In this document: positions 21,020 through 60,570 of the stretch, piece after piece | Layout of the letters: every line of letters starts with the position of its first letter | Numbering within the stretch: position 1 is the stretch's first letter | Assembly (NCBI GenBank): GCA_001816585.1 | Contig: MHCJ01000003.1 | Location: forward strand, 778,681 to 842,680 | Direction: 5' to 3' | DNA length: 64,000 nucleotides | DNA from: Candidatus Chisholmbacteria bacterium RIFCSPHIGHO2_01_FULL_52_32 | GTDB lineage: Bacteria > Patescibacteriota > Microgenomatia > UBA1400 > Chisholmbacteraceae | Made by a program: the position numbers and the translations under genes | The notes under the pieces: model-generated | The model's input: only the letters and a program-made list of their open reading frames with translations | The model's database searches: none | Told to the model about the DNA's origin: nothing

Positions 21020-21745
21020 CTAGACCTTGATGAGGGCAGCAGTAATCACAGCGCGACGAAGGTATGTTCCTGGCGGCGTACAGGTAATGAGGCGGAGATA
21101 TTCGTTGTCATACGATTGCTCAAGAACCGTGAGGTTATCGGGTTTTACCTCTGTTTTGTCAATTACCCGATAGGTATAGGAAATTCCATCGAATTTTATG
21201 AGCACTTCGTCTCCAATTTCCATCGTTGGGACAAGGGAAAAGATCGCCTTGTAATTCTTCGGATTGAAGAATTGGGGGAGAATTGAATGACCGAAGATAA
21301 TGGTTGCGCCCAGCTCTCCGGGAAGCGCTGAGCCTTTATATTGGACAAGATTTTTAGAAAGGTCTTCTCCGCCAATGGCTACCGTCGCGTCAATGATATT
21401 GAATTTCGGTATCGATAGCGTGTAGTGGGTAATTTTGGATTCCCTTGCCGTGTTCGGTTTCGCATTGGGAAACCAGTCTGTGGGATTCAGCAATTCCTGG
21501 CTCGCTGAGCCAAACTGATCGGGCTCGCTACCCTTTACAGGTATGGGGGTAACAAACTGTTGGGGCTTGAGACTTGGAGCGGTAAATACCTCATATGAAA
21601 CAATTGGCCAAATGACACTTCCTATGATCATCGTCCCGGCAACCATGAGCCCTTTTGCTGCTATCTTGGGTCGACTCTGTCTCCTATCGCTTGATCCTTG
21701 TGCTTCTGGCTCGATCCTTCGTTTGACGTACCGATAGGGTTTCAT
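21020..21745 (-). CDS. Sortase family transpeptidase
   Basis: N-terminal membrane anchor; catalytic His (IIFGHSI), Cys in LRLITCTPPGT (TLXTC) and Arg (YLRRAV). Confidence 0.8.
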   Translation of the reverse strand: MKPYRYVKRRIEPEAQGSSDRRQSRPKIAAKGLMVAGTMIIGSVIWPIVSYEVFTAPSLKPQQFVTPIPVKGSEPDQFGSASQELLNPTDWFPNAKPNTARESKITHYTLSIPKFNIIDATVAIGGEDLSKNLVQYKGSALPGELGATIIFGHSILPQFFNPKNYKAIFSLVPTMEIGDEVLIKFDGISYTYRVIDKTEVKPDNLTVLEQSYDNEYLRLITCTPPGTYLRRAVITAALIKV

Positions 21746-24024
21746 TCACGCTCTTCGACTTTCATTTCTATCGATATATTTTTGGTAAATCTCGGTATAT
21801 GTTTGAGACGGTCAGGAATTCCGCTAGGAGTAATCTGAATGTCTACCTTCACCACGTTCGGGAGTTTTTCTAAAAATTCTAGGGCAATATCCGGATATTT
21901 TCCTTTGAGGTCTTGTTTTAGCTGTTCCTCATCGATCTGCGGCACGAGAACCGCTTTGTACAATAGTGTTACTTGTCCTACGGCATCTTTCATATCAGCT
22001 GATCGAATTTCCGTTTGACTTTCCTCTTCCTGAAGCTCAAAGTCCTGGGGAGTTGCCTCGCTTATTGCCTGTCGTAGGATTTCCTTTAGGTCATCTTCTC
22101 TATAGGCAAGCGACTTTACTTTCAGCCTGATTGTCGCTTGTATCTTCTGTGCCTCATCTCCAACTTTTCCGCTCAATTCTTGGGATATTACTTCCGTTTC
22201 GGCTCCCTCGTTCAACACTCTGTTTCCTTCGTCCTCCTTTTCCTCTAGTTTTACTGCCCCTTCTGTCTTGAGTTCTGTCGTTAATTCGGCAAGCAGGGTC
22301 TCGATATCTTCGTCTGAAATTGCTGGAACTTCACGGCTCGTTCCTCCGGAAAATGGCGTTTCGTTTTTCGCATCGTATGAAGCCGTTGAGAAAGACTTTA
22401 GAGAAAAATCAGTATTGGTAGAGAGATTGTACTCGGATCCAATTTGCGAGGCAGTCGCTTTCCCTTTGGCTTTTCCGAACATCGTGGTGAGAGCCTCGTC
22501 ACTCTCCTTGGCACTTGCGGATGCGACCGTGACTGGACCGTCAAGGGTGAAAGCTAGGTTGTTCGGGCCCAACACTACTGTTCCTTCCGGAAATGTCTTG
22601 GTTGCCGTGGTCTTGTTATAGATCGTCACCTCACCCGCGGCTTTCTCTCCGACTACTTTGATTCCCGTCACTTCTTTTTCTTTGGAATTTTCCACTTCGA
22701 TCTCGACAATTTTCCCGGGAATGAGATTTTTGGCGCTTTCTATCTGCGTGCTTTCGGGGGAAATGGTAACGGTCAGCTCTTTCTCGAGCGTCCTTGGCTT
22801 AACATAGAGGATCAATCTGGCTTTGGGTATTGTCCAATAGCCATAGACGCTAAGACCCGTTAAAAGGCCGAAGAATCCGAGTGCAACGATCAGGGCGACT
22901 TTTATCCTTGTTGCGACCAACACATCCGGAAGAGATAGTTTGGGCATGCGGATTGGAAAAGGACGCGGGAGGAAGGCAAGGATGTGTTTCAGTCCGGTTC
23001 TTACATCTTGTCTCGCCTCCGGCTCTCCTCTCTGTTCTTCTTTCTGGGAGGTTTTCTTCGGAAAAAGAGGCTTTTCCTCATGTTCTTCCCTGTCTCGGGC
23101 GGTTGGTTGATACACATCGCTTTCAAGTTTAAACCCAATTTCATCTGCCTGAGCGATGATCTCGGGTTCCCCCTCCTTCTCTTTTTCCTCCGTTTCTTCT
23201 GCCTCCGTCTCCCGGGGTTCTTCTTGGACCTCTTCCCTGGTCTCGTCCTCTTCTTCGGTCATCTCAAACCCAAGTGCTTTGGCTGCTTCTGTCCCTCCAG
23301 CGATGGCGACCGCCTTGATCGTCACCTGGATGTCCAATATCTCTACCTTTGGAAAATGCAAGAACGGAAGTTTCTCAAGCCAATTATATGAGAGGAGATC
23401 CTGTCTTACGTCTTCCAAATTGAGCGAAGCGTTATAGAGAAGCATTCTTGAAGGGAAGTTCTCGGTCGTCTCGAACCGCGCCAGTCCTTCTTCCACATCC
23501 GCGCCGACATCTTCGCTCCGTGCGACTACCTCAGAGCCCACTACTTTTCCAAGATTGACAAGCGTCACCTGTATTTCTGACTGGTTAACGCGAACAAGGA
23601 TTGCTGTCGGCGGAGTTCCCTCTTCGCGTTTGAGGAGTTGAACGATCGCTTCCGTTGTGACCACAAATCCGATTGGTTTAAATCCGAATTTCTGGCTAAT
23701 TTGTCGAAGGGTCTTGGCGTGTTCCTTGACAATTTCTTCTCCCTCAACCCAACCTTCCTGAAGTCCAAAAATGACCTTGTTCGGCTCAGGTTTGATTTCT
23801 TCAAGTTTCTGAAGCGAATTATCGATCGCAACCAAAAGGCCCTCGTTTGAGCCCTTCTCGACCTCCCATTCCTCCGTTGTACCCACCTTTATAATTTTGG
23901 TTTGTCCGTCAATCACCTGCCAAACCGCGGTGGTTACCGTTTCACTCCCAATTTCAACTGCCAGGAATTGCTCTTGGGCTTTTTCTTTTGTGGTCAATTT
24001 TGAGAAAATGTCTTCCAATGCCAT
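21742..24024 (-). CDS. 760-aa bitopic membrane protein: compact FtsA/PilM-like actin-fold N-terminal domain, poly-acidic linker, TM helix, about 370-aa extracytoplasmic domain
   Basis: N-terminus FLAVEIGSETVTTAVWQV.. and later ..ILVRVNQSEIQVTLVNLGK.., ..IKAVAIAGGTEAAKALGF.. align with FtsA phosphate-1, phosphate-2 and adenosine motifs; E/D-rich stretch; TM IKVALIVALGFFGLLTGLSVYGYW; stop overlaps the sortase start (ATGA). Confidence 0.55.
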   Translation of the reverse strand: MALEDIFSKLTTKEKAQEQFLAVEIGSETVTTAVWQVIDGQTKIIKVGTTEEWEVEKGSNEGLLVAIDNSLQKLEEIKPEPNKVIFGLQEGWVEGEEIVKEHAKTLRQISQKFGFKPIGFVVTTEAIVQLLKREEGTPPTAILVRVNQSEIQVTLVNLGKVVGSEVVARSEDVGADVEEGLARFETTENFPSRMLLYNASLNLEDVRQDLLSYNWLEKLPFLHFPKVEILDIQVTIKAVAIAGGTEAAKALGFEMTEEEDETREEVQEEPRETEAEETEEKEKEGEPEIIAQADEIGFKLESDVYQPTARDREEHEEKPLFPKKTSQKEEQRGEPEARQDVRTGLKHILAFLPRPFPIRMPKLSLPDVLVATRIKVALIVALGFFGLLTGLSVYGYWTIPKARLILYVKPRTLEKELTVTISPESTQIESAKNLIPGKIVEIEVENSKEKEVTGIKVVGEKAAGEVTIYNKTTATKTFPEGTVVLGPNNLAFTLDGPVTVASASAKESDEALTTMFGKAKGKATASQIGSEYNLSTNTDFSLKSFSTASYDAKNETPFSGGTSREVPAISDEDIETLLAELTTELKTEGAVKLEEKEDEGNRVLNEGAETEVISQELSGKVGDEAQKIQATIRLKVKSLAYREDDLKEILRQAISEATPQDFELQEEESQTEIRSADMKDAVGQVTLLYKAVLVPQIDEEQLKQDLKGKYPDIALEFLEKLPNVVKVDIQITPSGIPDRLKHIPRFTKNISIEMKVEERE

Positions 24025-31571: not shown

Positions 31572-32228
31572 TTAGAGGAGGGTTAATTGAAGGTTTGTTT
31601 GGTTCTCTTCAGATATTGCCGTTTTGTCATCCGTATTCCCGGGTTCACTTTGTTTTATTAAAGTCTGTAAAACGTTTGCTAATTTCACAAAATCAGCCTT
31701 ATATGCTTCCATTATCTTTTGGTTTCGCAGTGCAGCGGCTGGGTGGTACATCGGAAAGATGATAATCTTTCGCCCTTTCCATTCCACCCGATGGGCCTGG
31801 CCATGGATCCTGGTGATATAGACATCAGGAATGAATTTTCCCATACTGAATCTCCCTAGTGTTGCGATAATCTTTGGTTTAATTATTTGAATTTCCTCAT
31901 CAAGGTATGTCCTGTACGCTTCTATTTCTTCTGGAAGCGGATCTCTGTTCTGAGGAGGTCTTACCTTAAGGATATTTGATATCCAGACGTCCTCCCGCTT
32001 CAAGCCGTTCTCTTCGAGTGATCGGGTCAAGAGCTTTCCAGCCGGACCTACGAATGGTCTTCTTTCGACATGCTCATGATAGCCGGCTGCTTCACCGATG
32101 AACATAAGCTGCGCCTGCGGGTTACCTTCTGCGGGAACAATGTCCTTTACGCTCCTGGCAAGGGGAAGACTCTGGGCATCACTTTCCAGTCTTTCCATTA
32201 CCTTTTGTAATTCCTGTTTGTTGGTCAT
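31572..32228 (-). CDS. Uracil-DNA glycosylase, family 4
   Basis: FIGEAAG...RPFVGPAGKLL and HPAA motifs typical of family-4 UDG. Confidence 0.8.
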   Translation of the reverse strand: MTNKQELQKVMERLESDAQSLPLARSVKDIVPAEGNPQAQLMFIGEAAGYHEHVERRPFVGPAGKLLTRSLEENGLKREDVWISNILKVRPPQNRDPLPEEIEAYRTYLDEEIQIIKPKIIATLGRFSMGKFIPDVYITRIHGQAHRVEWKGRKIIIFPMYHPAAALRNQKIMEAYKADFVKLANVLQTLIKQSEPGNTDDKTAISEENQTNLQLTLL

Positions 32229-32269: not shown

Positions 32270-33325
32270 TTACACCTTCGGGATGTATTCTGAAATGTTT
32301 GCCTCAGTAAGATGCAATGTTTTTGTTTCTCCTTCAACGATCTGCTTTGCCACCTTGCGGGTTATTCCCTGGATGTTACGCTGTAGAGTTCGGATTCCTG
32401 CATCGAATCCCAGGGGCCGCACAATTTTTGGCCAGAGTTCGTCATCGATTTGAAGGTTTTCTGCGGTAATCCCAGACTCCGCCATCGCTTCAGGTAAGAG
32501 GTATTGCCGTCCGATGTGAATCTTTTCGTCATCACTGTATGCCGGCATGCTAATCGGTTCAAGCCTATCCATGACGGCCGTTGCGATGTTGGTGGTGTTG
32601 TTCGCGGTGGTGACGAATAACGCTTCCGAGAGATCAAAGGGAAAGTCAATATAATGATCGACAAAGGCGTAATTCTGTTCCGGATCTAAAAGCTCCACGA
32701 GGACGCCCATGATGTCCGAGCGGGCTTCTTCGGAAACCCGATCAATTTCATCCAAGAGAATCACGGGGTTTTTCACCTTGGCTCGACGTAAGGCTTTGAT
32801 GACGTAACCCGGTTCCGCTTCCGGATACTGACGGGATTGCCCGCGCAGATCCCGCGCTGAACCCATTCCACCAAAGGGAATACGTGCAAATGGCCTTCCC
32901 GTTGCTTCCGCAATCGAATAGGCAAAGGTAGTCTTTCCGGTACCTACCAATCCCACCAGACAAAGAATCGGGGCATGGACCCGCTCTTCTTCTTTGTGTT
33001 TCTCGGATTTTAATTTTAATACCGCGAGGTATTCAATGATCCGTTCCTTCACCTCCTTTAATCCGAAGTGGTTCTTGTCAAAGATCTCGCGGGCTCTATT
33101 TAAATCCAGTACAGATTCGTTCTTTGCATTCCAGGGTAAATTGGCGACCCAGTCAATGTAATGGGTCACCCGATCATATTCGAGTGAATATCCTTCTGTC
33201 TGGGCAACCCTTTTCAGGCGATCCAGTTGTTTCTCTATTTCGAGGGAAAGCTCTTTGGGAAGCTCAGCTTTTTCGATTCTTATCCGAAGAGACTCAATTT
33301 CCTTTGCGAGCGGCTCCTCAACCAT
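32270..33325 (-). CDS. Lon-family AAA+ ATPase module without LAN N-domain and without S16 peptidase domain
   Basis: ..HYIDWVANLPWNAKNE..DHFGLKEVKERIIEYLAV.. then Walker A GLVGTGKTT and Walker B ILLDEIDR; ends (..LTEANISEYIPKV) exactly at the Lon AAA+/protease boundary; next gene is UDG. Confidence 0.7.
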   Translation of the reverse strand: MVEEPLAKEIESLRIRIEKAELPKELSLEIEKQLDRLKRVAQTEGYSLEYDRVTHYIDWVANLPWNAKNESVLDLNRAREIFDKNHFGLKEVKERIIEYLAVLKLKSEKHKEEERVHAPILCLVGLVGTGKTTFAYSIAEATGRPFARIPFGGMGSARDLRGQSRQYPEAEPGYVIKALRRAKVKNPVILLDEIDRVSEEARSDIMGVLVELLDPEQNYAFVDHYIDFPFDLSEALFVTTANNTTNIATAVMDRLEPISMPAYSDDEKIHIGRQYLLPEAMAESGITAENLQIDDELWPKIVRPLGFDAGIRTLQRNIQGITRKVAKQIVEGETKTLHLTEANISEYIPKV

Positions 33326-33392
33326 CAGGTCCTCCAATGGGAATGAATGAAGTCATTATATCAGAGCTTTCAGTGATTAACTGGGGGTAGAT

Positions 33393-35672
33393 TTAGCGCC
33401 GATGAGGGTGAAAGGGCTTTCCGTGTTGACGGCCCTGAGGATGCTGCCACTGTTCTTTGGGGGAATTAAATCCCGGTTTTCTTTCGATTCCGGGGATACT
33501 TAAGTTTAATCTTCCCAGCTCGTCTATCTCTGCCACCTTCACCCTGAGCTTATCGCCGACTGACACCAGTTGGTTTGGATCGGAGACATATTCCTGCGAC
33601 ATCTTTGAGACATGAACCAATCCTTCTTTTCCCGGAAGGATTTCGACAAAAACTCCAAACGGTTGGACCCTTTTTACCACTCCATCAAATTCCTCTCCAA
33701 CCTGCACTTTTCGGGTGAGGCTCTCTATCCACTCTACTGCTTTCTTTATACCTTCGGCATCTGTTCCCGAGATGGTCACCGATCCATCGTCTTCAACATC
33801 AACGGCGGCCCCGGTTTCTGCAATGATTTTTCGAATCATCTTTCCTCCCGGACCGATGACCTCGCCGATTTGCTCCGGCGAGATCTTTAAAATTTCGACT
33901 CTCGGGGCATACTTCGACAATTGAGCTCGAGGGGATGGAAGAATGGAAAGTATTTTCTCAAGGATGAAGAGTCTCCCTTGCCTGGCTTGCTCGATCGCCT
34001 CGGCCAGGAGCTTTTCTGTAATCCCTTTCATTTTGACGTCCATTTGAATTGCTGTGATACCATCCTTGGTCCCTGCTATTTTAAAATCCATATCTCCAAT
34101 CTGATCCTCAAGGCCCTGGATGTCTGAGAGAATCGCGTATCTCTGTTTCTCCCCCATTCTCCCTTCGTAGATCAGACCCATTGCAATTCCTGCCACCGGT
34201 TTCTTCAACGGCACGCCAGCATCCATGAGAGAGAGGGTTGAGCCACAGACCGAAGCCATACTGGTTGATCCGTTACTTGAAAGGATCTCGGAGACAACCC
34301 GGATGGTGTAGGGAAATTCGTCCTCAGGAGGTATCATCGGTTCCAAAGCCCGTTCTGCGAGGGCTCCGTGCCCGATTTCTCTCCTTGAAGGCCAGCCCAG
34401 TCTCCCTACCTCTCCCACGCTAAAGGGGGGCATGTAGTAGTGATGCATGTAGCGTTTCGTACCCTCGCCCTCCATGGTTTCAATCCATTGCTCCAAGGAT
34501 GGCGCCGCAAGAGTAGTTATGGTTAAAGCCTGGGTTGTTCCTCTTTTAAACATTGCGGATCCGTGCGTGCGGGGGAGAAGGCTGACGTCGCCCGTGATTG
34601 GCCTTATTTCGTTCGTCTTCCTTCCATCGGGACGTTTCCCACTTCCAAGAATCATTTCTCTGGTTTTGTGCTTGACAAGCTTTACCAGCACGTCTTTTAC
34701 TTGCGTTTTACTCAATTCGGGTTCCTTTTCTGTGATCTGAAGCGTTACGGCATCGAAATCTGGTTCTCCCTGCTGTCCTTCTGGTTCCGTCAGCGTCTTT
34801 ACCAATTCCTTTGCATGCTGAGTCACTTTTTTCACAACTTCTGGATCTTCTTTCTTTTTCGGAATGGCTTGCTTTTTCTTCCCTACTTCTTTTACGAGCT
34901 TGTTTATCTCTTGAATGATTTTATTGATTTCGAGTCTGGCCGCCTCGAAAGCGCTTAGCAGGGTTTTCTCCGGTATCTCGTTGGCCCCTGCCTCCACCAT
35001 CATGATAGAGTCTTCTGTGGCGGAAACGACCAGATCAAGATCAGAGTATTCCCGTTCAAGGTGGGTGGGGTTTATGACAAAGTCCCCCTGGTTTGGTTTC
35101 TCTCCTTTTATGGGGTTTACTGGGCTTTGCTCGTCCTTCATTTCCTGATGAACCGTCTCAGGGTGTTGGGGGTTGGTGTTTTTCCCTTTGGGAATAAAGC
35201 CAACACGGACCGCGGCAAGTGGTCCGTCCCAGGGAATGTCGGAGATTGCCAGGGCTGCTGAAGTGGTAATGATTCCTAGGATGTCCGGATCGTTTTCGGC
35301 GTCCACAGATAGCACGGTGAGGATAACCTGGGTTTCGGCTGCATAGTTTTCCGGGAACAACGGGCGGATGCCTCGATCGACGAGCCTTGCATTGAGAATT
35401 GCATCGTCACTCGGCCTGCCCTCTCTCTTTACCCAGCGAGAGCCTTTAATCCTGCCTCCAGCGTAGAGTTTCTCCTGATATTCAACCGAGAGCGGGAAAT
35501 AACCCAGATCTTCTCTGATTCCTCCCGAAACCACGGTTGCCAAGATCATGGTATCACCATACCTCCCAAGCACTGCAGCGTTTGCCTGCTCGGCAAACCT
35601 TCCTACTTCAAGTTCGAGGGTTTTTCCTCCGATCTCAATTGTTTGTCGTACCACTTTATCCTGGCGTTCCAT
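33393..35672 (-). CDS. pnp: Polyribonucleotide nucleotidyltransferase (PNPase), with C-terminal extension
   Basis: Two RNase PH domains, KH, S1; ORF-track start 35678 is TTG, ATG at 35672 (MERQDKVV..). Confidence 0.95.
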   Translation of the reverse strand: MERQDKVVRQTIEIGGKTLELEVGRFAEQANAAVLGRYGDTMILATVVSGGIREDLGYFPLSVEYQEKLYAGGRIKGSRWVKREGRPSDDAILNARLVDRGIRPLFPENYAAETQVILTVLSVDAENDPDILGIITTSAALAISDIPWDGPLAAVRVGFIPKGKNTNPQHPETVHQEMKDEQSPVNPIKGEKPNQGDFVINPTHLEREYSDLDLVVSATEDSIMMVEAGANEIPEKTLLSAFEAARLEINKIIQEINKLVKEVGKKKQAIPKKKEDPEVVKKVTQHAKELVKTLTEPEGQQGEPDFDAVTLQITEKEPELSKTQVKDVLVKLVKHKTREMILGSGKRPDGRKTNEIRPITGDVSLLPRTHGSAMFKRGTTQALTITTLAAPSLEQWIETMEGEGTKRYMHHYYMPPFSVGEVGRLGWPSRREIGHGALAERALEPMIPPEDEFPYTIRVVSEILSSNGSTSMASVCGSTLSLMDAGVPLKKPVAGIAMGLIYEGRMGEKQRYAILSDIQGLEDQIGDMDFKIAGTKDGITAIQMDVKMKGITEKLLAEAIEQARQGRLFILEKILSILPSPRAQLSKYAPRVEILKISPEQIGEVIGPGGKMIRKIIAETGAAVDVEDDGSVTISGTDAEGIKKAVEWIESLTRKVQVGEEFDGVVKRVQPFGVFVEILPGKEGLVHVSKMSQEYVSDPNQLVSVGDKLRVKVAEIDELGRLNLSIPGIERKPGFNSPKEQWQHPQGRQHGKPFHPHRR

Positions 35673-35742
35673 AATCAATCCTGGGGAAGCTTTCTCTAGA
35701 GGAGGAAAGCTTGTTATACAGTTCTTTCTTTTTTACGGAGCT

Positions 35743-36060: not shown

Positions 36061-37194
36061 TCAGTCCACTTTCGATGAACCTTTATAGATTTTCGGCTTA
36101 TTAAGCCAGTCTGGCTGGGGTTTTACACTCTGCCAACTTCGACCATCCTTTATCCCCTGAATTCCCGGGGTTCCCGGCTGGGGATTTCGTGTTGCTCCTT
36201 CTCCATGGGTTGTCTGGGTTATCGGTTGTCTGAATTGTCTGGATTGATCTCCCGTATCCCTTGTCGGTTCCGGAAGAATACTCGAAGGGGTGGAGATGTC
36301 GCTCAAATTTAGTTCTGGTTCAGCTAAGCTTGTGGGAGCAATCCCTGGGGGGGCCTGTGGCACTGGTCCCTTTCCTTGAGGGACAAATCTTCCTTGGTCG
36401 CTTCGATCTTGAGAAAAAGCTGGAATTCCTCCTTGAACCCACGGTCTTGACGCGGGCATTGGTTGTGTGCGCCTGGCTCCGGAACGGAGAAGCTCTGCAA
36501 CTGTTTCAAAGGTCTCTGGTCCGGCAAATGGTGCCTGGAAATTCTGGGTTTGTGCTTCGATACCTTTGAGTAGGTTTCCCGCAATGTCCACATCCATCCG
36601 TAAGCCAAGCTGCTTTATCAGATTGAAGATCAGCTCGCAGATCGATCCTTGAGACGACTCCACGACGTTCACTTGGCCGAATTTGGTGTTTGCCTGCGAT
36701 TTGTCGATATTGATGACCGCGGCTTTGTTGAATGCTTCTCGTTCCTTCTCATAGAGCTCCCCCAAACCCTCCAGTCTCTGGGCACCAATCACGACTATCA
36801 CTTCTGCCTGAATGCCTTCGTAGGAAAATTCGACGCTTTTGGTATCCAGAGGAGGATATCCTGATTTCGGTTGGATGACGAGGTTAAATTTCCCGGCGTC
36901 GACGTTATAGCTTACCTTTTCAATGGAATCTTCCTTGTAGTCGAAGGCAATGGTGAGATTCCGGTTGCCGACTTTATCGGAGATCTGATCGATTCCTACC
37001 AGACGGTTGTACTCTACCCGCATCTTCGTCGGGCAGCCGATCACGACGCTTTTCCCCGTTTCCTTCAATGCCAGATACAGTCCCAGCCCGGCGGCCGTAG
37101 TATCGAGGCTTGGATTTCCAGGGATGAGAACAAAAATGCTCTTGGCACTGTCAAGAGCTTTCTTGATTTCCTCAAGATGTTCTTGGGCAATCAT
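36061..37194 (-). CDS. DHH-family (NrnA-like) homolog with degenerate catalytic motifs plus Pro/Gln/Gly-rich low-complexity C-terminal tail
   Basis: N-terminal about 230 aa align to NrnA, but motif I DxD reads SLDTT and DHH reads FDY; the last about 140 aa are low-complexity P/Q/G-rich; ATGA overlap with the infB stop. Confidence 0.45.
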   Translation of the reverse strand: MIAQEHLEEIKKALDSAKSIFVLIPGNPSLDTTAAGLGLYLALKETGKSVVIGCPTKMRVEYNRLVGIDQISDKVGNRNLTIAFDYKEDSIEKVSYNVDAGKFNLVIQPKSGYPPLDTKSVEFSYEGIQAEVIVVIGAQRLEGLGELYEKEREAFNKAAVINIDKSQANTKFGQVNVVESSQGSICELIFNLIKQLGLRMDVDIAGNLLKGIEAQTQNFQAPFAGPETFETVAELLRSGARRTQPMPASRPWVQGGIPAFSQDRSDQGRFVPQGKGPVPQAPPGIAPTSLAEPELNLSDISTPSSILPEPTRDTGDQSRQFRQPITQTTHGEGATRNPQPGTPGIQGIKDGRSWQSVKPQPDWLNKPKIYKGSSKVD

Positions 37195-48505: not shown

Positions 48506-49102
48506 ATGGCTGCCCGAAAGCCAACCATTGATCTTCTTTCCCGCGAAGATTTATCTCAACGGCCGGTTGGTCGTTTGCTTCTGTGGATTTTAACTGTCGG
48601 GCGTTACATCGTTATTTTCTCAGAACTCGTAGTCATTTCTGGATTTATCATCCGTGTTATTCTTGATCGAAATCTCAATTCCATCAATGAAGATCTCCTT
48701 CGACAAAAAGCCATCCTCGCTTCTTATCTTCCAACCGAGCAACGCGTTCGCCGCGCAGCTCAGCAATTTGCGACCATCTCACGGATTGAACAGGAGCAGC
48801 AAGATCTCGGGAAGCTCCTCGAAAAGATCGGCCAAGTTTCCCCAAAGGATCTCAGGTTCTCCAATCTCTCCCTTGACCCTCGTACCATGGAGATCTCTGC
48901 TGTCGCACTATCTCCTTCGGGGTTTTCGACGTTTTTGGGGAACCTCCAGGCTGACCCAGGTATCGGCGATCTGATTCTTCAATCTGTCGAATCCGGCACA
49001 GCTCAAGATCCCGGTATCCATTTTCGTTTGACCGTTGAATTTGTGGGAGCACCATCATTACTTCAAACCCAACCGCCTCCCACTGAAGAGGAGCAGCTTT
49101 AG
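48506..49102 (+). CDS. pilN: Type IV pilus assembly protein PilN-like (bitopic)
   Basis: N-terminal IDLLS (compare PilN INLLP) cytoplasmic peptide, TM, coiled coil, C-terminal domain resembling PilN; AAGGAA SD. Confidence 0.55.
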   Translation: MAARKPTIDLLSREDLSQRPVGRLLLWILTVGRYIVIFSELVVISGFIIRVILDRNLNSINEDLLRQKAILASYLPTEQRVRRAAQQFATISRIEQEQQDLGKLLEKIGQVSPKDLRFSNLSLDPRTMEISAVALSPSGFSTFLGNLQADPGIGDLILQSVESGTAQDPGIHFRLTVEFVGAPSLLQTQPPPTEEEQL

Positions 49103-49114
49103 CAAAAACCCTTT

Positions 49115-49765
49115 ATGTCTTTTCCGTACGAAGAAAATTTTCGCCGCTATGGTCGCTACTATCGGACCGCACGAAAGTATGCCCAACGCCCAGAAGTTCT
49201 GATTTCCACAAGTTTTATCCTTGCTCTTTTCACCATCTCGTTTTTTGCTATCGTGGCGATCAGACCGACGGCCATTACCATCGCTAAACTCTGGAGAGAG
49301 ATTCAAGAGAAGAAAACCATCCAAGCCACGCTGGCGCAGAAGATCGCGAAACTTGAGGAGGCACAATCCACCTATTCTGCTCTTGAGGAAGACCTGGCGC
49401 TTCTCGATCGTGCACTTCCCGAAACTCCGGAGTTTTCCCGGCTGGTACGGGAAATGGAATATCTGTCTTTGACCCAAGGGCTCCAAATCGATGCAGGCCG
49501 CTATGAAACCCTTGAGCTTTGGGTCAGAGAAGCCAGTGCTTCTACGGAAATTGGAACGCATCCGTTCACGTTAGTCCTCCGCGGAACCTATCCTAAACTT
49601 CGCTCTTTTGTTTCGGATTTGGAACGACTAGACCGGCTGCTTTCTATTGGTATGGTGACAATGCAACCATCCCAAAAGCAAGACCAGCCTGGAATCTACG
49701 ACTTAACGCTGACTGCAAATATTCGTGCTTTTTCATTTCCTAGCGGCCTCGATCTTGAACGCTAA
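49115..49765 (+). CDS. pilO: PilO-like type IV pilus assembly protein
   Basis: Short cytoplasmic N-terminus, TM, coiled coil (..LAQKIAKLEEAQSTYSALEEDLALL..), alpha/beta core; follows the PilN-like gene. Confidence 0.45.
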   Translation: MSFPYEENFRRYGRYYRTARKYAQRPEVLISTSFILALFTISFFAIVAIRPTAITIAKLWREIQEKKTIQATLAQKIAKLEEAQSTYSALEEDLALLDRALPETPEFSRLVREMEYLSLTQGLQIDAGRYETLELWVREASASTEIGTHPFTLVLRGTYPKLRSFVSDLERLDRLLSIGMVTMQPSQKQDQPGIYDLTLTANIRAFSFPSGLDLER

Positions 49766-53017: not shown

Positions 53018-54934
53018 ATGAAACTTCAGCCGTCAATCTCTTCCACGAGTTTCGCGTTCAAGAACCTTACCCAACTGTCAGAAGGGGCGCGGAACAGATT
53101 CGTACAGGCTGCTATGGCCAGGCTAAAAGCATGGCGAGACTACCAAAGTGACAAGAAAAATCAAGACAAACCTTCTGCAGCCAAACGAATTTCTGTTATG
53201 CGGCCCGCTCGGGATAAACCGTTTGCGACCAAGAAATTTCCGTTCCGCGGATTCAATAATGACGCGAACGTCGAGTCTTCTTGGAAATTCTGGCTGACAC
53301 TTATCGTTCTGGTTGGCGGTTTTTTCCGTTTCGCAAAGCTCGATTGGGGGGACGGTTATTTCTTTCATCCTGATGAGTATCACATCAGCTCTGCCGTTGA
53401 TAAACTCTCTTTTCCCTTTCAGATGGATCCCCATTTCTATGCGTATGGTTCTTTCCCCATCTATCTTATCTATTTTGCACGGGCAATCATCTTCGCCCTA
53501 TTCCCAGATTATCTCTTTTCTCCCATACTGATAGGGAGATTCTTTTCCGCTTTCTTTTCAACCATTACAATTTTGTTTGTCTTTTTGAGCGCACGGATCA
53601 CGTTTCGAAACCATACAATCGCTCTGCTCCCTGCCCTTCTGGCGGCGTTAACCCCTGGACTTATCCAACAAGCGCATTTTGCCACCCCTGAGTCCAGTCT
53701 GACCTTTTTTATTTTTCTTTGCCTGTGGCTGTGGCTCTCTTATCTTCGCACCACTCGTCCGGTCTTTCTTTATGTTTCCGCCATCTCCCTTGGGTTGGCT
53801 GTAGCTTCGAAAATTTCCGCTGTTTCTCTGCTTCCCGTGTTTGTGTTCCTCCCTTTTTTCAAGCGCGTTTTATCCTCTTTTCGATCTGTTCTCGCGGGCA
53901 TAGCTCGCTTGGGTGTTTGTCTCCTTCTTGTCCTTGTTTCGTTCCTATCCGTCTTCCCCTTTGCTCTTTATTCCTTCAGCGCTTTTTCCTCTTCCCTTTC
54001 TTATGAGATCGGTGTCGGAAGAGGAGAGCCGATCGTCTTTTACACACGGCAGTTTATCGATACCGCTCCGCTCCTGTTTCATACTATGCATATCCTCCCC
54101 TATGCTCTTGGGCCGGCGATGCTTGGATTTGGAGGTGTCGGATTCCTGATTGTGGTTTCTGATATCTCTTTGCTGAGGTTTGGTACAAAGCGAGACAGGG
54201 TCCTCTGGGGTTTGCTTGTTATTGTTTTTCTGGCTTTGTTTCTCCCTCAGATATTCCTGTTTGCAAAATGGACACGGTTCATCGCGCCCTCGTTTGCCTT
54301 TTTTTCTTTGTTTTCGACCTATTTTTTCTATCGGATCAGTCCTTTCCTCAAGTCGCAAGCTTTGGGGGGGGTGATTCAATCGGTTGCCTGTCTCGTTCTC
54401 CTTCTGCCCACCATTTTTTGGGCGCTTGCGGTTTCTTCCGTCTATTTCCGGCGAGATGTCCGCGTCCTTGCGACAGCGTGGGTCGCCCAACAGCTTCCGC
54501 CACGTTCCTTCCTTCTTACCGAATCTGGCAACATCCTTGAAGTCCCTCTCTGGGGTGAGTTTCGCAAAGACGCATTTGACTTTTATGAGCTTGAACACCG
54601 AGCGGATCTTCAAAGACAGCTTCCGACTCTTCTTTCACAAGCGGATTATTTCATCGTCCAGAGCCGGCGCATCTTTTTCAACCATCAGCGGCTTCCCGCA
54701 CAATTTCCTTTTACATCTCGGTTTTATGATCTTCTCTTCTCCGGCTCCTTAGGATTCGAGTCAATGGCTACCTTTTCCTCCTATCCGAGGTTATCCTTCG
54801 GTCGGGCAACCATAGAAATACCTGATGAAGTAGCCGAAGAAACGTGGTCGGTTTTTGACCATCCGGTGGTACGGATTTTTCGGAAGAGCGTTTTATTCAC
54901 TGAGGCAGAATATGAAGAGCTTCTCACTGACTAA
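53018..54934 (+). CDS. Polytopic membrane protein, YYY/DUF2298-like putative GT-C glycosyltransferase (paralog 1) with loop-1 HPDE motif
   Basis: Basic N-terminal region then more than 10 TM helices; WGDGYFFHPDEY...FYAYGSFP motif; C-terminal soluble domain. Confidence 0.6.
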   Translation: MKLQPSISSTSFAFKNLTQLSEGARNRFVQAAMARLKAWRDYQSDKKNQDKPSAAKRISVMRPARDKPFATKKFPFRGFNNDANVESSWKFWLTLIVLVGGFFRFAKLDWGDGYFFHPDEYHISSAVDKLSFPFQMDPHFYAYGSFPIYLIYFARAIIFALFPDYLFSPILIGRFFSAFFSTITILFVFLSARITFRNHTIALLPALLAALTPGLIQQAHFATPESSLTFFIFLCLWLWLSYLRTTRPVFLYVSAISLGLAVASKISAVSLLPVFVFLPFFKRVLSSFRSVLAGIARLGVCLLLVLVSFLSVFPFALYSFSAFSSSLSYEIGVGRGEPIVFYTRQFIDTAPLLFHTMHILPYALGPAMLGFGGVGFLIVVSDISLLRFGTKRDRVLWGLLVIVFLALFLPQIFLFAKWTRFIAPSFAFFSLFSTYFFYRISPFLKSQALGGVIQSVACLVLLLPTIFWALAVSSVYFRRDVRVLATAWVAQQLPPRSFLLTESGNILEVPLWGEFRKDAFDFYELEHRADLQRQLPTLLSQADYFIVQSRRIFFNHQRLPAQFPFTSRFYDLLFSGSLGFESMATFSSYPRLSFGRATIEIPDEVAEETWSVFDHPVVRIFRKSVLFTEAEYEELLTD

Positions 54935-56624
54935 ATCCTTTCAAATCCCAATCATTCTCATTTTTCTCATTTCTATGATCTTCCGGCTCTATGGGCTTAA
55001 TTGGGACGGGGGACATCATCTCCATCCGGATGAACGGTTCTTAACGATGGTTACCCAAGACATTTATTGGCCTCGCTCTGTCTCTTCCTACCTTAACCCC
55101 GCACTATCTCCCTTGAATCCCTACAACGTTGGCTATCCGTTCTTTGTCTATGGCATGTTTCCGCTTATCCTGGTGAAATTCATTTCTGACCTGATCACCC
55201 TCGACCATTTCTCCTACAACAACATTACTTTGGTCGGTCGTGTGCTGGCTGCGACGTTTGATGTCGGAACACTCCTTGTCGTTTATCTCATCGCGCGACG
55301 CACTTTTTCTTCACGCATAGCCCTGTTTTCCGCCCTGTTCTACGGTCTATCTGTTTTGCCTATTCAACTCTCACATTTTTTTACCGTCGATCCGGTCATG
55401 GTCTTTTTCCTTGTTCTTTCCTTTTTTCTGTTGCTGATTTTCCTTGATGGCCGGCGGCAATGTTTTTCAAGTATTGGGCTTGGTATTTCATTCGGGCTTT
55501 CGGTCGCCAGCAAAATCTCCGCGGGTTATTTTCTTGCCATTATTGGACTTGGGTGGCTGGTCGTTTTTTTGAGAACGAGAAAGGTTCTTCCAACAGTTCT
55601 TGGCGCCGTTTTATTCGTCTTTTTTTCTTACAGCACCCTTCGTCTTGCGGATCCACGGATGTTCACCTCCCCCTCGTTTTTTGATCCACGACCTAATCCC
55701 CAATTCCTTGCCAACCTTCGCGAGCTTCAAGCGCTAAACAATCGTTTTGCGTTCTTTCCTCCTTCCATTCAATGGATTCCGACCAACCCTATCTGGTTTC
55801 CTTTTATGAATATTGTGCTTTGGGGATTTGGCCTGCCTTTAGGCATTTTCGTGGTCTTGGGTCTTGTTGCTTCCCTGCGGTTCTTTACTATGACTATCTT
55901 GTTGCCTCGCCGTATTCCCCGCATCCTGAAGCTTTGGCCAGAGCATCTAGGTCATTTGTTTCTGCTTACGTGGGTACTTTTTCTTTTCATTTCTCAAGGT
56001 ATCCAGTTTGTAAAAACTCTGCGGTATTTTTATCCCATTTATCCGTTTTTTGTGATCTTGGCTGCTTGGTTCTTTGACAACACGGTGGTTCGGCGATCTT
56101 CCCACATCGTTGTTATTGGGTTCTGCGTTATCTTTGTGATTTATCCAGTTTCTTTTCTTTCCATTTACTCCCGTCCCCACTCGCGCGTGATGGCTTCCGA
56201 ATGGATCTACGCCAATATTCCCACCGGGTCTGTTCTTTCATGCGAGCATTGGGATGACTGTTTGCCGCTCGGTGCTTCGGGGAGGTCCAATGCGCTTTAT
56301 CAGACTGAAGTGCTGCCCCTTTTTGATCCTGATACCCCCGAAAAGTGGCGGAAGATCAATCGTCAACTTGAGAATGTGGATTATCTGATTCTCTCCTCTA
56401 ATCGTGTCTGGGGTTCCATTCCGAAGGTACCGGAGAAATTCCCTCTTACCAGTCAGTTTTATCAGGATCTGTTTGCCGGGAAGTTATATTTCAAGAAGGT
56501 TTTTGATCTCACGTCTTACCCTACCATTCCCCTTCTCAATATTCCCATTCCCGATGATTCTTCAGAGGAAGCGTTCACCGTCTATGATCATCCCCGGGTG
56601 ATCATCTTTCAAAGAATGCAATAA
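54912..56624 (+). CDS. Polytopic membrane protein, YYY/DUF2298-like putative GT-C glycosyltransferase (paralog 2)
   Basis: WDGGHHLHPDERF...FFVYGMFP motif pair as in paralog 1; ORF-track start 54855 is TTG, ATG at 54912 overlaps the paralog 1 stop by 23 nt. Confidence 0.6.
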   Translation: MKSFSLTKSFQIPIILIFLISMIFRLYGLNWDGGHHLHPDERFLTMVTQDIYWPRSVSSYLNPALSPLNPYNVGYPFFVYGMFPLILVKFISDLITLDHFSYNNITLVGRVLAATFDVGTLLVVYLIARRTFSSRIALFSALFYGLSVLPIQLSHFFTVDPVMVFFLVLSFFLLLIFLDGRRQCFSSIGLGISFGLSVASKISAGYFLAIIGLGWLVVFLRTRKVLPTVLGAVLFVFFSYSTLRLADPRMFTSPSFFDPRPNPQFLANLRELQALNNRFAFFPPSIQWIPTNPIWFPFMNIVLWGFGLPLGIFVVLGLVASLRFFTMTILLPRRIPRILKLWPEHLGHLFLLTWVLFLFISQGIQFVKTLRYFYPIYPFFVILAAWFFDNTVVRRSSHIVVIGFCVIFVIYPVSFLSIYSRPHSRVMASEWIYANIPTGSVLSCEHWDDCLPLGASGRSNALYQTEVLPLFDPDTPEKWRKINRQLENVDYLILSSNRVWGSIPKVPEKFPLTSQFYQDLFAGKLYFKKVFDLTSYPTIPLLNIPIPDDSSEEAFTVYDHPRVIIFQRMQ

Positions 56625-58307: not shown

Positions 58308-58464
58308 CGTTCCTGCCTATTATACGAAGAAAGAGTGTTTTTCCCTACTTCCCGGCTGTCTGTTTCTGGTGATTGTCTGAGGTAACTGAGGCGTCCTCTT
58401 GTATTCATCTCTCTTCTTGTCACTCTGTATCTGATAGGATTGATGCGTGTTCGGGAGTATCGCT

Positions 58465-60570
58465 ATGCCTGAATTATTGAGCGTCTTTTTCTGGTGGGGT
58501 TTGATCTCTTTCCTTGGTGCCTTGGCTTTTCCGTTTACTTTTTGGTTGTTCCGTCGCTTTTGGGATGGGGGATGGGCACTGGCAAAGATCCTCGGTTTGG
58601 TCCTTTTAACCTATTGGACGTGGATTGTTGGGAGCTTGCGGATCCTTCCTTTTGGGCCGCTTTCTTTGTGGCTTGGCGTTGGTCTGCTTGGTTGGTTTTC
58701 TTTCCAAGTCTTCATGAGATCGATTGAGCCGATACGGACGTTTGTTCGCGACCATTTGTCCCTGATCTTGTTTGAAGAACTCCTGTTTGGTGTCGGTTTG
58801 CTTGGCTGGGCATGGATTCGGGCACATCAGCCGGATATTGAGGGTCTTGAAAAATTCATGGATTTTGGATTTGTCAACTCGATCCTGCGCTCCCGTTGGT
58901 TTCCCCCCTTGGACATGTGGCTTTCGGGCAATACCATCAACTACTACTACTTCGGCCATTTGGTGACGGCCGTTCTGACGAAGCTTTCCGGCTTTCCCTC
59001 TTTTCGGACCTACAATTTGATGATTGCCGCTCTTTTTTCCTTGACGCTTGTTTCCTCCTTCTCCATCGGAGGAGCACTTACCCGCACGTTTCTTCGCATC
59101 CGCGATGCGAAATCTTCCAGAGTGCTTGTATTTTTAGGAGCCATTATTTCTGCGGTGACCCTGACCTTGGCCGGAAATCTCCATACCATCATCACCGTTG
59201 TCAACAAAGGGGCTTCTTCGTACTGGTACCCTGACGCTACCCGCTATATCCCTTTCACGATCCACGAATTCCCGCTCTACAGTTTTGTTGTAGCTGACCT
59301 GCATGGCCATGTTTCAAATATCCCATTTGTTCTCCTCATGGTAGGGCTCATCTTCAGTTTTGGGATTGAATTGTCTTTGAAACGGTTTTCCCTTCCTTTC
59401 TCCTCTTTCTTGCTCCGCTTACTGGCCATCGGGTTGACGACTGCCGTACTTTTCATGACGAACTCCCTGGATGCGCCGATTTACTTCTTGCTCTTTATTG
59501 TCGCTTTAGTGAGTTCGGGTCCGCGTCTTTCTTTTTTACGACGCTCTGCCTCAATCATCTTCGTTTCGTTTTACGTCGTGCTGATTTCTGCTTTTCTTTT
59601 TTCTCTCCCCTTTTCTCTCCGGTTTCATCCGTTTGCTCAAGGCATTGCGTTGGTGACTACTCGCTCATCTCCCCGTCAGCTTGGCGTCCTTTGGGGGTTT
59701 TTTCTCCTTGTTGCCTTTGTTTTTCTCTCTTCCTTTATCCGTCATCCCAACCGATATTTTCCAGATCGCCCTTCCGGTCCGGCGCGCCGGTTTCTCCTGA
59801 GTCTTCTCGGAGTTTCCTTGATTCTGGTTGTCCTTCCCGAGGTCATCTATATCAAGGATATCTACGTTGCTGAGTACTATCGAGCAAATACCATGTTTAA
59901 ACTGGCGTATCAGGCCTTCATCATGATGGCCCTTGTTACCGGGCCAGTTTTTTCCGGTTTGCTCTGGAATCTTTGGACAGCGAGGGGGCGAGGGCTTCGT
60001 TTCTCCCTGCTTGCGGTCGTTTTCGTGTTTCTCTTTGGCCTCGGCAGTGTCGTCTCCTATCCTTACTTTGCAATACGCTCTTACTACAGTTCCCTCAAGC
60101 ATTTCCGCGGACTTGACGGTCTTGCCTGGCTCTCCGCAAAGTACCCAAATGATGCCCAAGCCATAGACTGGTTACGGGAGAACGTCGAGGGGCAACCCGT
60201 TATTCTCGAAGCTGTGGGAGAAAGTTATACGAACTTCGCCCGGGTTTCGGCGAACACGGGCCTGCCGACAATCCTGGGCTGGCGGGTTCATGAGTGGTTA
60301 TGGCGAGGGAGTTTTGACGAAGCCGGTCTTCGAACAAACGTCGTTTCAACGATGTACACGTCAGTCGATTCGCTTGAAGTTTGTCGACTTATCGATCGCT
60401 ATGACGTGGACTATGTCTTTGTGGGAACCCTGGAAAGGAGTCAGTATCCCACGCTTTCCGAAGCGGTTTTTGAGCGACTTGGTACGTCCGTTTTTACTTC
60501 TGGAGATACCCGAGTATACCGGATCCGCAAGCCGTGTCGATCCCTGTCTTTTCATCTTCATCGGGCCTGA
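58465..60570 (+). CDS. YYY-motif (DUF2298 / chlor_Arch_YYY-type) polytopic membrane protein, putative GT-C glycosyltransferase (paralog 3)
   Basis: Hallmark NYYYFGH motif, about 14 TM helices, C-terminal soluble domain; ORF-track start 58447 is GTG, ATG at 58465 has a GGGAG SD. Confidence 0.65.
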   Translation: MPELLSVFFWWGLISFLGALAFPFTFWLFRRFWDGGWALAKILGLVLLTYWTWIVGSLRILPFGPLSLWLGVGLLGWFSFQVFMRSIEPIRTFVRDHLSLILFEELLFGVGLLGWAWIRAHQPDIEGLEKFMDFGFVNSILRSRWFPPLDMWLSGNTINYYYFGHLVTAVLTKLSGFPSFRTYNLMIAALFSLTLVSSFSIGGALTRTFLRIRDAKSSRVLVFLGAIISAVTLTLAGNLHTIITVVNKGASSYWYPDATRYIPFTIHEFPLYSFVVADLHGHVSNIPFVLLMVGLIFSFGIELSLKRFSLPFSSFLLRLLAIGLTTAVLFMTNSLDAPIYFLLFIVALVSSGPRLSFLRRSASIIFVSFYVVLISAFLFSLPFSLRFHPFAQGIALVTTRSSPRQLGVLWGFFLLVAFVFLSSFIRHPNRYFPDRPSGPARRFLLSLLGVSLILVVLPEVIYIKDIYVAEYYRANTMFKLAYQAFIMMALVTGPVFSGLLWNLWTARGRGLRFSLLAVVFVFLFGLGSVVSYPYFAIRSYYSSLKHFRGLDGLAWLSAKYPNDAQAIDWLRENVEGQPVILEAVGESYTNFARVSANTGLPTILGWRVHEWLWRGSFDEAGLRTNVVSTMYTSVDSLEVCRLIDRYDVDYVFVGTLERSQYPTLSEAVFERLGTSVFTSGDTRVYRIRKPCRSLSFHLHRA

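What the first reader, a model, noticed from the sequence alone, without database searches (positions are those of the whole stretch)
32270..33325. Stand-alone Lon-type AAA+ module lacking both the LAN N-domain and the S16 peptidase domain
Sequence identity to Lon is clear: the helix preceding the AAA+ core (HYIDWVANLPW..DHFGLKEVKERIIEYLAV), Walker A and Walker B. The ORF begins inside the long helix and ends precisely at the AAA+/protease domain boundary (LTEANISEYIPKV, compare Lon ..ENLHDYLG..). The downstream gene 41 bp away is a complete UDG, so the protease domain is not hiding in a frameshift.

A Lon ATPase without its peptidase would be an unfoldase or chaperone-like protein, or the partner of a protease encoded elsewhere.
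Basis: seen in the sequence. Interest (0 to 1): 0.55.

Follow-up and report, generated by a model that had tools for sequence, protein, structure and literature searches.

The report
Protease-less Lon ATPase paralogue in Microgenomates
This is a real, strongly conserved gene for a Lon-type ATPase motor that has no protease domain and an altered substrate channel, found throughout one large group of ultra-small bacteria, alongside a normal Lon protease in the three relatives where this could be checked; nobody has studied what it does.

Summary
Window 32270-33325 (-) encodes a 351-aa protein that matches LonA only over the three-helix bundle, AAA+ core and Lon lid (E. coli Lon residues 250-579). 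It has no LAN N-domain and no S16 peptidase. Complete pnp and udg genes lie 67 and 41 nt away, so there is no room for lost domains.

It is not an artefact. The identical protein occurs on at least 24 independent contigs. More than 120 homologues (60-88% identity) are all 343-378 aa, and at least 80 Microgenomates species genomes carry it in the same nusA-infB-rpsO-pnp-[gene]-udg/rnj-ftsK context. It is as conserved as PNPase or FtsK.

All ATPase residues are invariant. The LonA pore-loop-1 motif TY[VI]GA[ML]PG is replaced by x[H/R/Y/F]x[E/D][A/S]EPG, and the bulky pore-loop-2 residue becomes Ala.

No S16 domain lies within 10 kb in 82 loci. A canonical full-length LonA coexists with the family gene in three relatives. 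The gene is therefore a distinct paralogue and probably not half of a split Lon.

Best reading: a ring-forming ATPase that remodels a narrower, probably basic, set of clients without proteolysis. A separate peptidase partner or an interaction with LonA is not excluded. The rest of this genome could not be searched.

The parts
32270..33325 (-). Gene for the stand-alone Lon-type AAA+ ATPase (351 aa plus stop). An alternative TTG start lies at 33337.
   Evidence: (100% identical to P0001)
33330..33335 (-). GGAGGA ribosome-binding site, 4 nt before ATG 33325
   Evidence: sequence read
32999..33325 (-). N-terminal helical region, residues 1-109: a three-helix bundle plus two helices, equivalent to the end of the LonA long helix and its 3H bundle (E. 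coli Lon ~242-345)
   Evidence: AF2 helices H3-20, H24-43, H48-61, H75-85, H90-109; alignment to E. coli Lon
32540..32980 (-). AAA+ alpha/beta subdomain, residues ~116-262
   Evidence: Pfam AAA; AF2 model and Foldseek matches to LonA/LONP1, TMq 0.79-0.89
32930..32953 (-). Walker A, GLVGTGKT (residues 125-132). The family signature is LV where LonA has PP.
32807..32845 (-). Remodelled pore-loop 1, RGQSRQYPEAEPG (residues 161-173). LonA has RGHRRTY[VI]GA[ML]PG.
32741..32761 (-). Walker B, ILLDEID (residues 189-195)
   Evidence: D192 and E193 invariant in 148 sequences
32711..32740 (-). Pore-loop-2 region, RVSEEARSDI (residues 196-205). The bulky LonA residue (F/Y/M, Trp431 in MtaLonA) is Ala201 here.
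   Evidence: PMC8503904
32564..32602 (-). Sensor-1 Asn242 to arginine finger Arg254
   Evidence: N242 and R254 invariant; the Arg finger corresponds to MtaLonA Arg484
32306..32539 (-). Lon-type lid (small alpha) subdomain, residues 263-340, including sensor-2 Arg312
   Evidence: Pfam Lon_lid; R312 invariant
32273..32299 (-). C-terminal tail, NISEYIPKV. The family consensus is N[IV]K[DE][YF]LPx[Y/W/F]-COOH, ending exactly at the LonA AAA+/protease linker.
   Evidence: low pLDDT for the last residues
33393..35678 (-). Upstream neighbour pnp (PNPase), same strand, 67-nt gap, no terminator-like site between the genes
31572..32228 (-). Downstream neighbour, a family-4 uracil-DNA glycosylase, same strand, 41-nt gap

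Best explanation
The gene encodes a functional member of a conserved, previously uncharacterised family of LonA-derived stand-alone AAA+ ATPases, made of a three-helix bundle, an AAA+ core and a Lon lid. The family is a separate paralogue of the canonical Lon protease and is vertically inherited in Microgenomates (CPR bacteria).

Shown: (1) the domain boundaries; (2) conservation of every residue needed for ATP binding, hydrolysis and inter-subunit (arginine-finger) catalysis; (3) replacement of both LonA pore-loop gripping motifs by a polar and acidic motif; (4) a fixed C-terminus; (5) housekeeping synteny; (6) coexistence with full-length LonA in three relatives.

Inferred: the protein assembles into a Lon-like ring and hydrolyses ATP. 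It works without a covalently attached protease. It acts as an ATP-driven remodeller or segregase for a narrow client set, probably positively charged proteins or tails, rather than as a general degradative unfoldase.
For: Real and under selection:
- The identical protein is on at least 24 contigs.
- 120 homologues at 60-88% identity are all 343-378 aa.
- The best 80 GTDB species-genome hits are all Microgenomates lineages.
- Median identity to the window is 55%, against pnp 52%, ftsK 55%, alaS 51% and rnj 45%.

ATPase competent: K131, D192/E193, N242, R254, R312 and the LDPEQN hairpin base are invariant across the family and LonA. The fold is LonA AAA+ (pLDDT 88.7, TMq up to 0.89).

Changed channel:
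- At the Tyr position the family has H 94, R 16, Y 9 and F 4 of 131.
- The LonA Gly is Asp/Glu in 128 of 131.
- The LonA Met/Leu is Glu in 129 of 131.
- The LonA pore-loop-2 Phe/Tyr/Met is Ala in 99 of 131.
- All 17 LonA sequences, and the CPR LonAs separately, keep RGHRRTY[VI]G.
- MtaLonA Tyr397 and Trp431 contact the substrate and are required for degradation (PMC8503904).

Paralogue rather than a split Lon:
- In an NJ tree all stand-alone forms make one clade outside LonA, including CPR LonA.
- Full-length LonA P0271 is on the same contig as the family gene in L051.
- P0273 is on the same contig in L089.
- P0366 is in the same MAG as L013.
- No S16 domain lies within 10 kb in 82 loci covering 1.3 Mb.
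Against: - There are no biochemical data, so oligomeric state, ATPase activity and clients are all inferred.
- The window protein itself keeps Tyr167, and H/R/Y/F are all planar side chains, so threading may be retained.
- The isolated E. coli Lon AAA+ fragment (6n2i) is deposited as a single chain. From prior knowledge rather than any result here, the protease ring helps LonA form hexamers. Ring assembly without a partner is therefore not assured.
- The conserved aromatic C-terminus could be a docking tail for a partner.
- The window's own genome beyond these 64 kb was not searched for S16 or LonA.
Confidence: 0.55

Rival explanations
1. It is the ATPase subunit of a two-component protease. 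The ring docks through its conserved C-terminal tail onto a separately encoded peptidase (an orphan S16 domain or another self-compartmentalising peptidase) and feeds it substrates, as HslU does for HslV.
For: The protein ends exactly where LonA's linker to the protease begins, and 99 of 131 family members end in an aromatic residue two positions after a conserved Pro. The tail has low model confidence, which is compatible with a flexible docking peptide. The ATPase and arginine-finger residues are intact.
Against: No S16 domain lies within 10 kb of the gene in 82 loci or anywhere in the 64-kb window. No protease was found in the parts of the window that were scanned. The translocating pore-loop motifs are lost in most members. 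Canonical LonA already supplies a Lon ATPase-protease in three relatives. The window's own subclade lacks the terminal aromatic residue (it ends ...PKV or ...PK).
Confidence: 0.15
2. It modulates canonical LonA. It could co-assemble into or stack on LonA rings, or compete for LonA clients, acting as a protease-less regulatory subunit.
For: It coexists with full-length LonA in three genomes (55/31). It shares the Lon fold and the inter-subunit residues. Natural Lon proteases with two or three tandem Lon-type AAA+ modules exist, so extra Lon AAA+ tiers are structurally tolerated.
Against: The family is only about 40% identical to CPR LonA and forms a separate clade. There is no operon linkage to lonA: it lies 8 kb away on the opposite strand in L051 and L089. 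The tandem-AAA Lons do not carry the family signature. Presence of LonA in all family-bearing genomes was not tested.
Confidence: 0.12
3. It is a dedicated component of the RNA-decay or ribosome-associated machinery. It would use its acidic channel to strip or remodel basic RNA-binding proteins for PNPase and RNase J.
For: pnp lies directly upstream in 55 of 82 loci and rnj downstream in 60 of 82. A DHH-like gene and rpsO lie further upstream, and RNase Y is nearby in L051 and L089. No terminator-like site separates pnp from the gene. Two nearly invariant acidic residues sit in pore-loop 1.
Against: Synteny in a vertically inherited core cluster is weak evidence of function. Some loci lack pnp or rnj next to the gene. 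The adjacency to udg and ftsK is equally conserved. There is no direct evidence of any interaction.
Confidence: 0.1
4. It is a decaying lon pseudogene or an assembly or frameshift artefact.
For: None beyond the truncated architecture relative to LonA.
Against: The identical sequence is on at least 24 independent contigs. Length and both ends are conserved in more than 120 homologues down to 39% identity. Catalytic residues are invariant. Complete genes flank it tightly. No S16 or LAN remnants appear in any frame.
Confidence: 0.01

Closest known systems
LonA protease (endopeptidase La; E. coli, B. subtilis 3M6A, M. taiwanensis 4YPL/7FD4, human LONP1)
   Same: About 39-42% identity over the three-helix bundle, AAA+ core and lid. 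Shares Walker A/B, sensor 1, the arginine finger, sensor 2 and the pre-sensor-1 hairpin base LDPEQN. The predicted fold is the same.
   Different: Has no LAN N-domain and no S16 Ser-Lys peptidase domain. Pore-loop-1 TY[VI]G and the pore-loop-2 bulky residue are replaced. Walker A is GLVGTGKT instead of GPPGVGKT. It scores below the TIGR00763 cut-off and forms a separate clade.
E. coli Lon AAA+ fragment 235-584 (PDB 6N2I), a laboratory construct
   Same: Almost the same boundaries as the natural protein (query 12-352 aligns to chain residues 9-339; TMt 0.88).
   Different: 6N2I is an artificial truncation of a protease. The window protein is a naturally stand-alone, conserved gene product with its own signature residues.
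HslU (and ClpX): stand-alone HCLR-clade ATPases that serve separate peptidases
   Same: A single AAA+ module encoded without a protease domain. Like HslU, the C-terminus emerges from the lid, and here it is conserved. This comparison rests on established knowledge of HslUV, not on a test here.
   Different: HslU and ClpX keep the aromatic-hydrophobic-Gly pore loop and have a known partner (HslV or ClpP). Here the pore loop is polar and acidic, and no partner is known.
LonC (M. taiwanensis) and other degenerate Lons
   Same: They show that Lon-family members can lose one of the two activities (PMC3391209 and PMC13069640, listed).
   Different: LonC keeps the protease and has a dead ATPase. This family is the opposite case: it keeps ATPase residues and has no protease.

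Membership tests
LonA protease (MEROPS S16 / TIGR00763 endopeptidase La) | C-terminal S16 peptidase domain with a Ser-Lys dyad (Pfam Lon_C) | tested here: not met
   There is no Lon_C hit. The protein ends at the linker. tblastn with 17 P-domains finds nothing in the window.
LonA protease (MEROPS S16 / TIGR00763 endopeptidase La) | N-terminal LAN / LON substrate-binding domain (PF02190) | tested here: not met
   There is no PF02190 hit. The match starts at TIGR00763 position 252. No N-domain hit appears in the window.
LonA protease (MEROPS S16 / TIGR00763 endopeptidase La) | Whole-protein score above the curated cut-off | tested here: not met
   346.3 bits against a cut-off of 608.05.
LonA protease (MEROPS S16 / TIGR00763 endopeptidase La) | Pore-loop-1 motif T-Y-[V/I]-G and a bulky pore-loop-2 residue | tested here: not met
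   The window has Q-Y-P-E and Ala201. The family has mostly His, and 17 of 17 LonA sequences keep TY[VI]G or TYVN.
Lon-type AAA+ module (HCLR clade) | AAA core plus the Lon-specific lid, Walker A/B, sensor 1, arginine finger, sensor 2 and the pre-sensor-1 hairpin | tested here: met
   Pfam AAA plus Lon_lid. Invariant K131, D192, E193, N242, R254, R312 and L213-D214-P215. The fold matches LonA.
Lon-type AAA+ module (HCLR clade) | ATP hydrolysis and ring (hexamer) assembly | not testable with these tools
   This is inferred only from conserved catalytic and arginine-finger residues.
LonB / LonBA / LonC | A protease domain, plus a membrane anchor or inserted domain in the AAA+ module | tested here: not met
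   There is no Lon_C domain and no insertion. The best matches are all LonA.
Two-component HslUV-like ATPase | A separately encoded, co-distributed peptidase partner | tested here: inconclusive
   None was found within 10 kb in 82 loci or in the 64-kb window. Whole genomes could not be searched.

The most novel reading that the evidence does not exclude
Microgenomates carry a core, lineage-wide Lon-derived motor that has been repurposed. It has an acidic His/Glu-lined channel and no protease, and it is a dedicated part of the PNPase / RNase J (RNA-decay and ribosome) gene cluster. It would remodel basic RNA-binding proteins. This would be the first natural protease-free Lon, and a new class of AAA+ remodeller specific to CPR bacteria.
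Probability: 0.12. Interest if true: 0.8.

Novelty: new variant of a known kind. Interest (0 to 1): 0.55.

Why it matters
Lon is defined in the literature as a single chain that always joins an ATPase to a protease (PMC9569914 abstract). A natural Lon motor with no protease contradicts that definition. This one is as conserved as PNPase across a whole class of CPR bacteria, and its substrate channel has been rewritten.

It would show how an AAA+ protease can be converted into a non-degradative machine. It would also add an uncharacterised core gene to the very small proteostasis toolkit of these reduced genomes.

The family offers natural variation at the pore-loop Tyr (His, Arg, Tyr or Phe) for testing how pore chemistry sets client choice.

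Tried and rejected
- Frameshift or hidden domains: six-frame tblastn with E. coli Lon and 16 other LonA N- and P-domains found nothing outside the AAA+ region.
- Split Lon with an adjacent S16 gene: rejected for the neighbourhood, with none in 82 loci.
- Finding LonA or S16 in the window's own genome: not possible, because only ±10 kb around known proteins can be fetched. The LonA search returned Microgenomates and other CPR LonAs, but none on a contig the length of this organism's longest contig (1,158,385 bp). This does not settle the question, because only the 120 best hits were listed.
- Rosetta-stone idea: the top-scoring multi-stretch hits are Lon proteases with tandem AAA+ modules. Their modules lack the family signature, so they give no specific link.
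- Promoter and terminator scan: counts were close to shuffled expectation and are uninformative, except that no terminator-like site lies between pnp, the gene and udg.
- Literature: six searches found no paper on a stand-alone Lon AAA+ or on Lon in CPR or Microgenomates.
- Defence-system libraries (PADLOC, PHROGs) were not scanned, because the context is housekeeping.
- The count of 587 genome hits was not used as the family size, because one search pattern also matches LonA.

Full report
**1. The observation**

The ORF list shows a minus-strand ORF at 32270..33337, 355 aa from TTG. The sequence has ATG at 33325 preceded by GGAGGA. The 351-aa product from that ATG is 100% identical to P0001, a hypothetical protein of a Candidatus Chisholmbacteria MAG.

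- Pfam finds only AAA and Lon_lid.
- The NCBIfam 'lon' equivalog TIGR00763 matches profile positions 252-571 of 795 at 346 bits, far below its 608-bit cut-off.
- The best solved structures are LonA proteases and the E. coli Lon AAA+ fragment 6N2I, whose boundaries are almost the same as this natural protein.
- tblastn with E. coli Lon hits the window only at 33301-32282, covering Lon residues 250-579 at 39% identity.
- Neither E. coli Lon nor 16 further LonA N- and P-domains hit anything else in the 64 kb.
- The flanking genes are complete: PNPase (33393-35678) and a family-4 UDG (31572-32228), both on the same strand, with gaps of 67 and 41 nt.

**2. It is not an artefact or a pseudogene**

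The identical protein is encoded on at least 24 independently assembled contigs from JGI, ENA, NCBI and Logan. The 120 best homologues (60-88% identity) are all 343-378 aa with the same Pfam content.

A scan of one genome per GTDB species returned 80 best loci at 50-61% identity. All of these that carry an informative organism label are Microgenomates lineages: Woese-, Gottesman-, Shapiro-, Ames-, Curtiss-, Levy-, Roizman-, Davies- and Collierbacteria. They include the complete genome CP011214.

Across 82 related loci the gene sits in a conserved housekeeping array: nusA-infB-(DHH-like)-rpsO-pnp-[gene]-(udg)-rnj-ftsK-HTH25-alaS. pnp is directly upstream in 55 loci and rnj downstream in 60.

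| Gene | Median identity to the window protein |
|---|---|
| this gene | 55% |
| pnp | 52% |
| ftsK | 55% |
| alaS | 51% |
| rnj | 45% |
| infB | 44% |

The gene is therefore under purifying selection typical of core genes.

Very divergent representatives keep the context. P0144 (46% identity) overlaps a udg gene by 4 nt. P0180 (39% identity) lies between rpsO-pnp and ftsK.

At 50% clustering there are further variants with low-complexity N- or C-terminal extensions. None of them has Lon_C or LAN.

**3. Anatomy**

An AlphaFold2 model (pLDDT 88.7) gives a three-helix bundle, two further helices, the AAA+ alpha/beta subdomain and the lid. Foldseek places it on LonA/LONP1 AAA+ modules, with TMq 0.79-0.89 and TMt 0.88 to 6N2I.

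In a 148-sequence alignment of the family with LonA, several sets of residues are invariant:
- Walker A: G125, G128, G130, K131, T132
- Walker B: D192, E193
- Sensor 1: N242
- D253-R254, the arginine finger (Arg484 in MtaLonA; PMC8503904)
- Sensor 2: R312
- Pre-sensor-1 hairpin base: L213-D214-P215, then N218

The motor and its inter-subunit catalytic contact are therefore preserved.

**4. What differs**

LonA pore-loop 1 reads RGHRRTY[VI]GA[ML]PG in all 17 LonA sequences in the alignment and in the eight further CPR LonAs examined separately. Single substitutions occur only within the GA[ML]P stretch: Gly→Asn in P0176, Ala→Ser in E. coli Lon and Pro→Val in P0376.

In the family the same stretch is RGQSR-x-[H 94, R 16, Y 9, F 4 of 131]-x-[E/D 128]-[A/S]-E(129)-P-G. 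The bulky pore-loop-2 residue of LonA (F/Y/M; Trp431 in MtaLonA) is Ala in 99 of 131.

MtaLonA Tyr397 and Trp431 contact the translocating substrate and are required for degradation (PMC8503904).

The window protein is one of the minority that keeps Tyr (Y167). It still has Pro-Glu-Ala-Glu where LonA has Val/Ile-Gly-Ala-Met/Leu.

Other family signatures:
- GLVGTGKT, against GPPGVGKT in LonA
- RIPFGGMG
- RPLGxDAGIR, against YTREAGVR in LonA

The C-terminus is also fixed, as N[IV]K[DE][YF]LPx followed by a final aromatic residue in 99 of 131 members. The Chisholmbacteria subclade ends ...PK(V/F/E). This tail has low model confidence.

**5. Relation to the real Lon**

In 1.3 Mb of flanking sequence from 82 loci there is no S16 domain. 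The single N-domain hit, in L051, is a complete LonA. This is P0271, 820 aa, with LAN, AAA, Lon_lid and Lon_C. It lies 8.3 kb from the family gene on the same 46-kb contig.

The same pairing occurs on a 699-kb JGI contig: LonA P0273 with a 399-aa family member after pnp. It also occurs in one Gottesmanbacteria MAG, with LonA P0366 on JACQJU010000040.1 and the family gene on JACQJU010000133.1.

A rough neighbour-joining tree of the shared region puts all stand-alone forms in one clade, outside every LonA including the CPR LonAs.

The family is therefore an old paralogue that coexists with a normal Lon, not the ATPase half of a split Lon. Whether the window's own genome has lonA or an orphan S16 domain could not be tested with these tools.

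**6. Mechanism**

Shown:
- a Lon AAA+ fold
- an intact ATPase and arginine finger
- a rewritten polar and acidic pore
- a fixed terminus
- no linked protease
- core-gene conservation

Inferred as most likely (confidence about 0.55): a ring-forming ATPase that remodels or extracts a restricted set of clients, probably positively charged, without degrading them.

Rivals:
- A two-component protease that uses the conserved C-terminal tail to dock on an unlinked peptidase (0.15).
- A modulator of LonA (0.12). Weak support comes from natural Lon proteases with two or three tandem Lon AAA+ modules, although these lack the family signature.
- A dedicated RNA-decay or ribosome-linked remodeller, suggested only by the pnp/rnj/DHH/RNase Y neighbourhood (0.10).
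- A pseudogene or artefact (0.01 or less).

**7. Known or new**

Sequence databases name these proteins 'AAA family ATPase', 'hypothetical protein' or, wrongly, 'ATP-dependent Lon protease'. NCBIfam has no model that reaches its cut-off.

Six full-text searches found nothing on a stand-alone Lon AAA+ or on Lon in CPR bacteria. A recent classification states that all Lons contain both ATPase and protease domains (PMC9569914).

I rate it a new variant of a known kind, with interest 0.55. It is real, conserved, unstudied and mechanistically suggestive, but it has no functional evidence.

Noticed in passing
not in the window; proteins P0121-P0139 (for example P0126 889 aa, P0123 1075 aa, P0122 1113 aa): These are Lon proteases with two or three tandem Lon-type AAA+ modules (each AAA plus Lon_lid) in front of a single S16 domain. 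The first module often has a degenerate pore loop. This is a 'type-II Lon' architecture that I have not seen described.
   Followed up: partly
L011, L016, L018-L020, L023 and many other loci: Some GTDB representative MAGs are titled 'uncultured Gammaproteobacteria', 'Pseudomonadales' or 'Bathyarchaeia archaeon'. They nevertheless carry the Microgenomates nusA-infB-rpsO-pnp-LonAAA-rnj-ftsK synteny. The titles are probably wrong.
   Followed up: no
window 36061-37194 (-): A 377-aa protein between infB and rpsO gives only a sub-threshold DHH match (23.9 bits against a cut-off of 28.1) and has a Pro/Gln-rich tail. It is conserved at this position in 39 loci at about 35% identity. It may be a degenerate NrnA-like protein sitting where rbfA/truB lie in other bacteria.
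   Followed up: partly
window 21742-24024 (-): A 760-aa ORF downstream of alaS has no Pfam hit. Homologues at the same position in 11 loci have 24-37% identity, and a faint or weak Baseplate_J match is recorded for the relatives' products.
   Followed up: no
window ~20000-46400 (-): There is a long co-directional housekeeping array: lepA, hrcA-grpE-dnaK-dnaJ, nusA-infB, rpsO-pnp, the Lon-AAA gene, udg, rnj, ftsK, an HTH_25/RodZ-like gene and alaS. Three or four RNA-decay genes are clustered here (DHH-like, pnp and rnj, plus RNase Y in relatives L051 and L089).
   Followed up: partly
window 53018-56624 (+) and 58447-60570 (+): Two adjacent PMT_2-type glycosyltransferases (638 and 589 aa, overlapping by about 80 nt) lie next to a DUF2298 membrane protein and a GT4 glycosyltransferase. 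This looks like a cell-envelope glycosylation cluster. PilN/PilO genes are at 48506-49765.
   Followed up: no
window 1-64000: ARAGORN finds no tRNA or tmRNA gene in the whole 64 kb, although the window contains the rpoBC, S12-S7-EF-G-EF-Tu and ribosomal-protein region.
   Followed up: no
L093 1009-1591 and L096 5329-6002: In some relatives small toxin-antitoxin-like genes (PIN, BrnT, HTH_17/PIN_3) are inserted immediately upstream of the Lon-AAA gene, replacing or interrupting the link to pnp.
   Followed up: no
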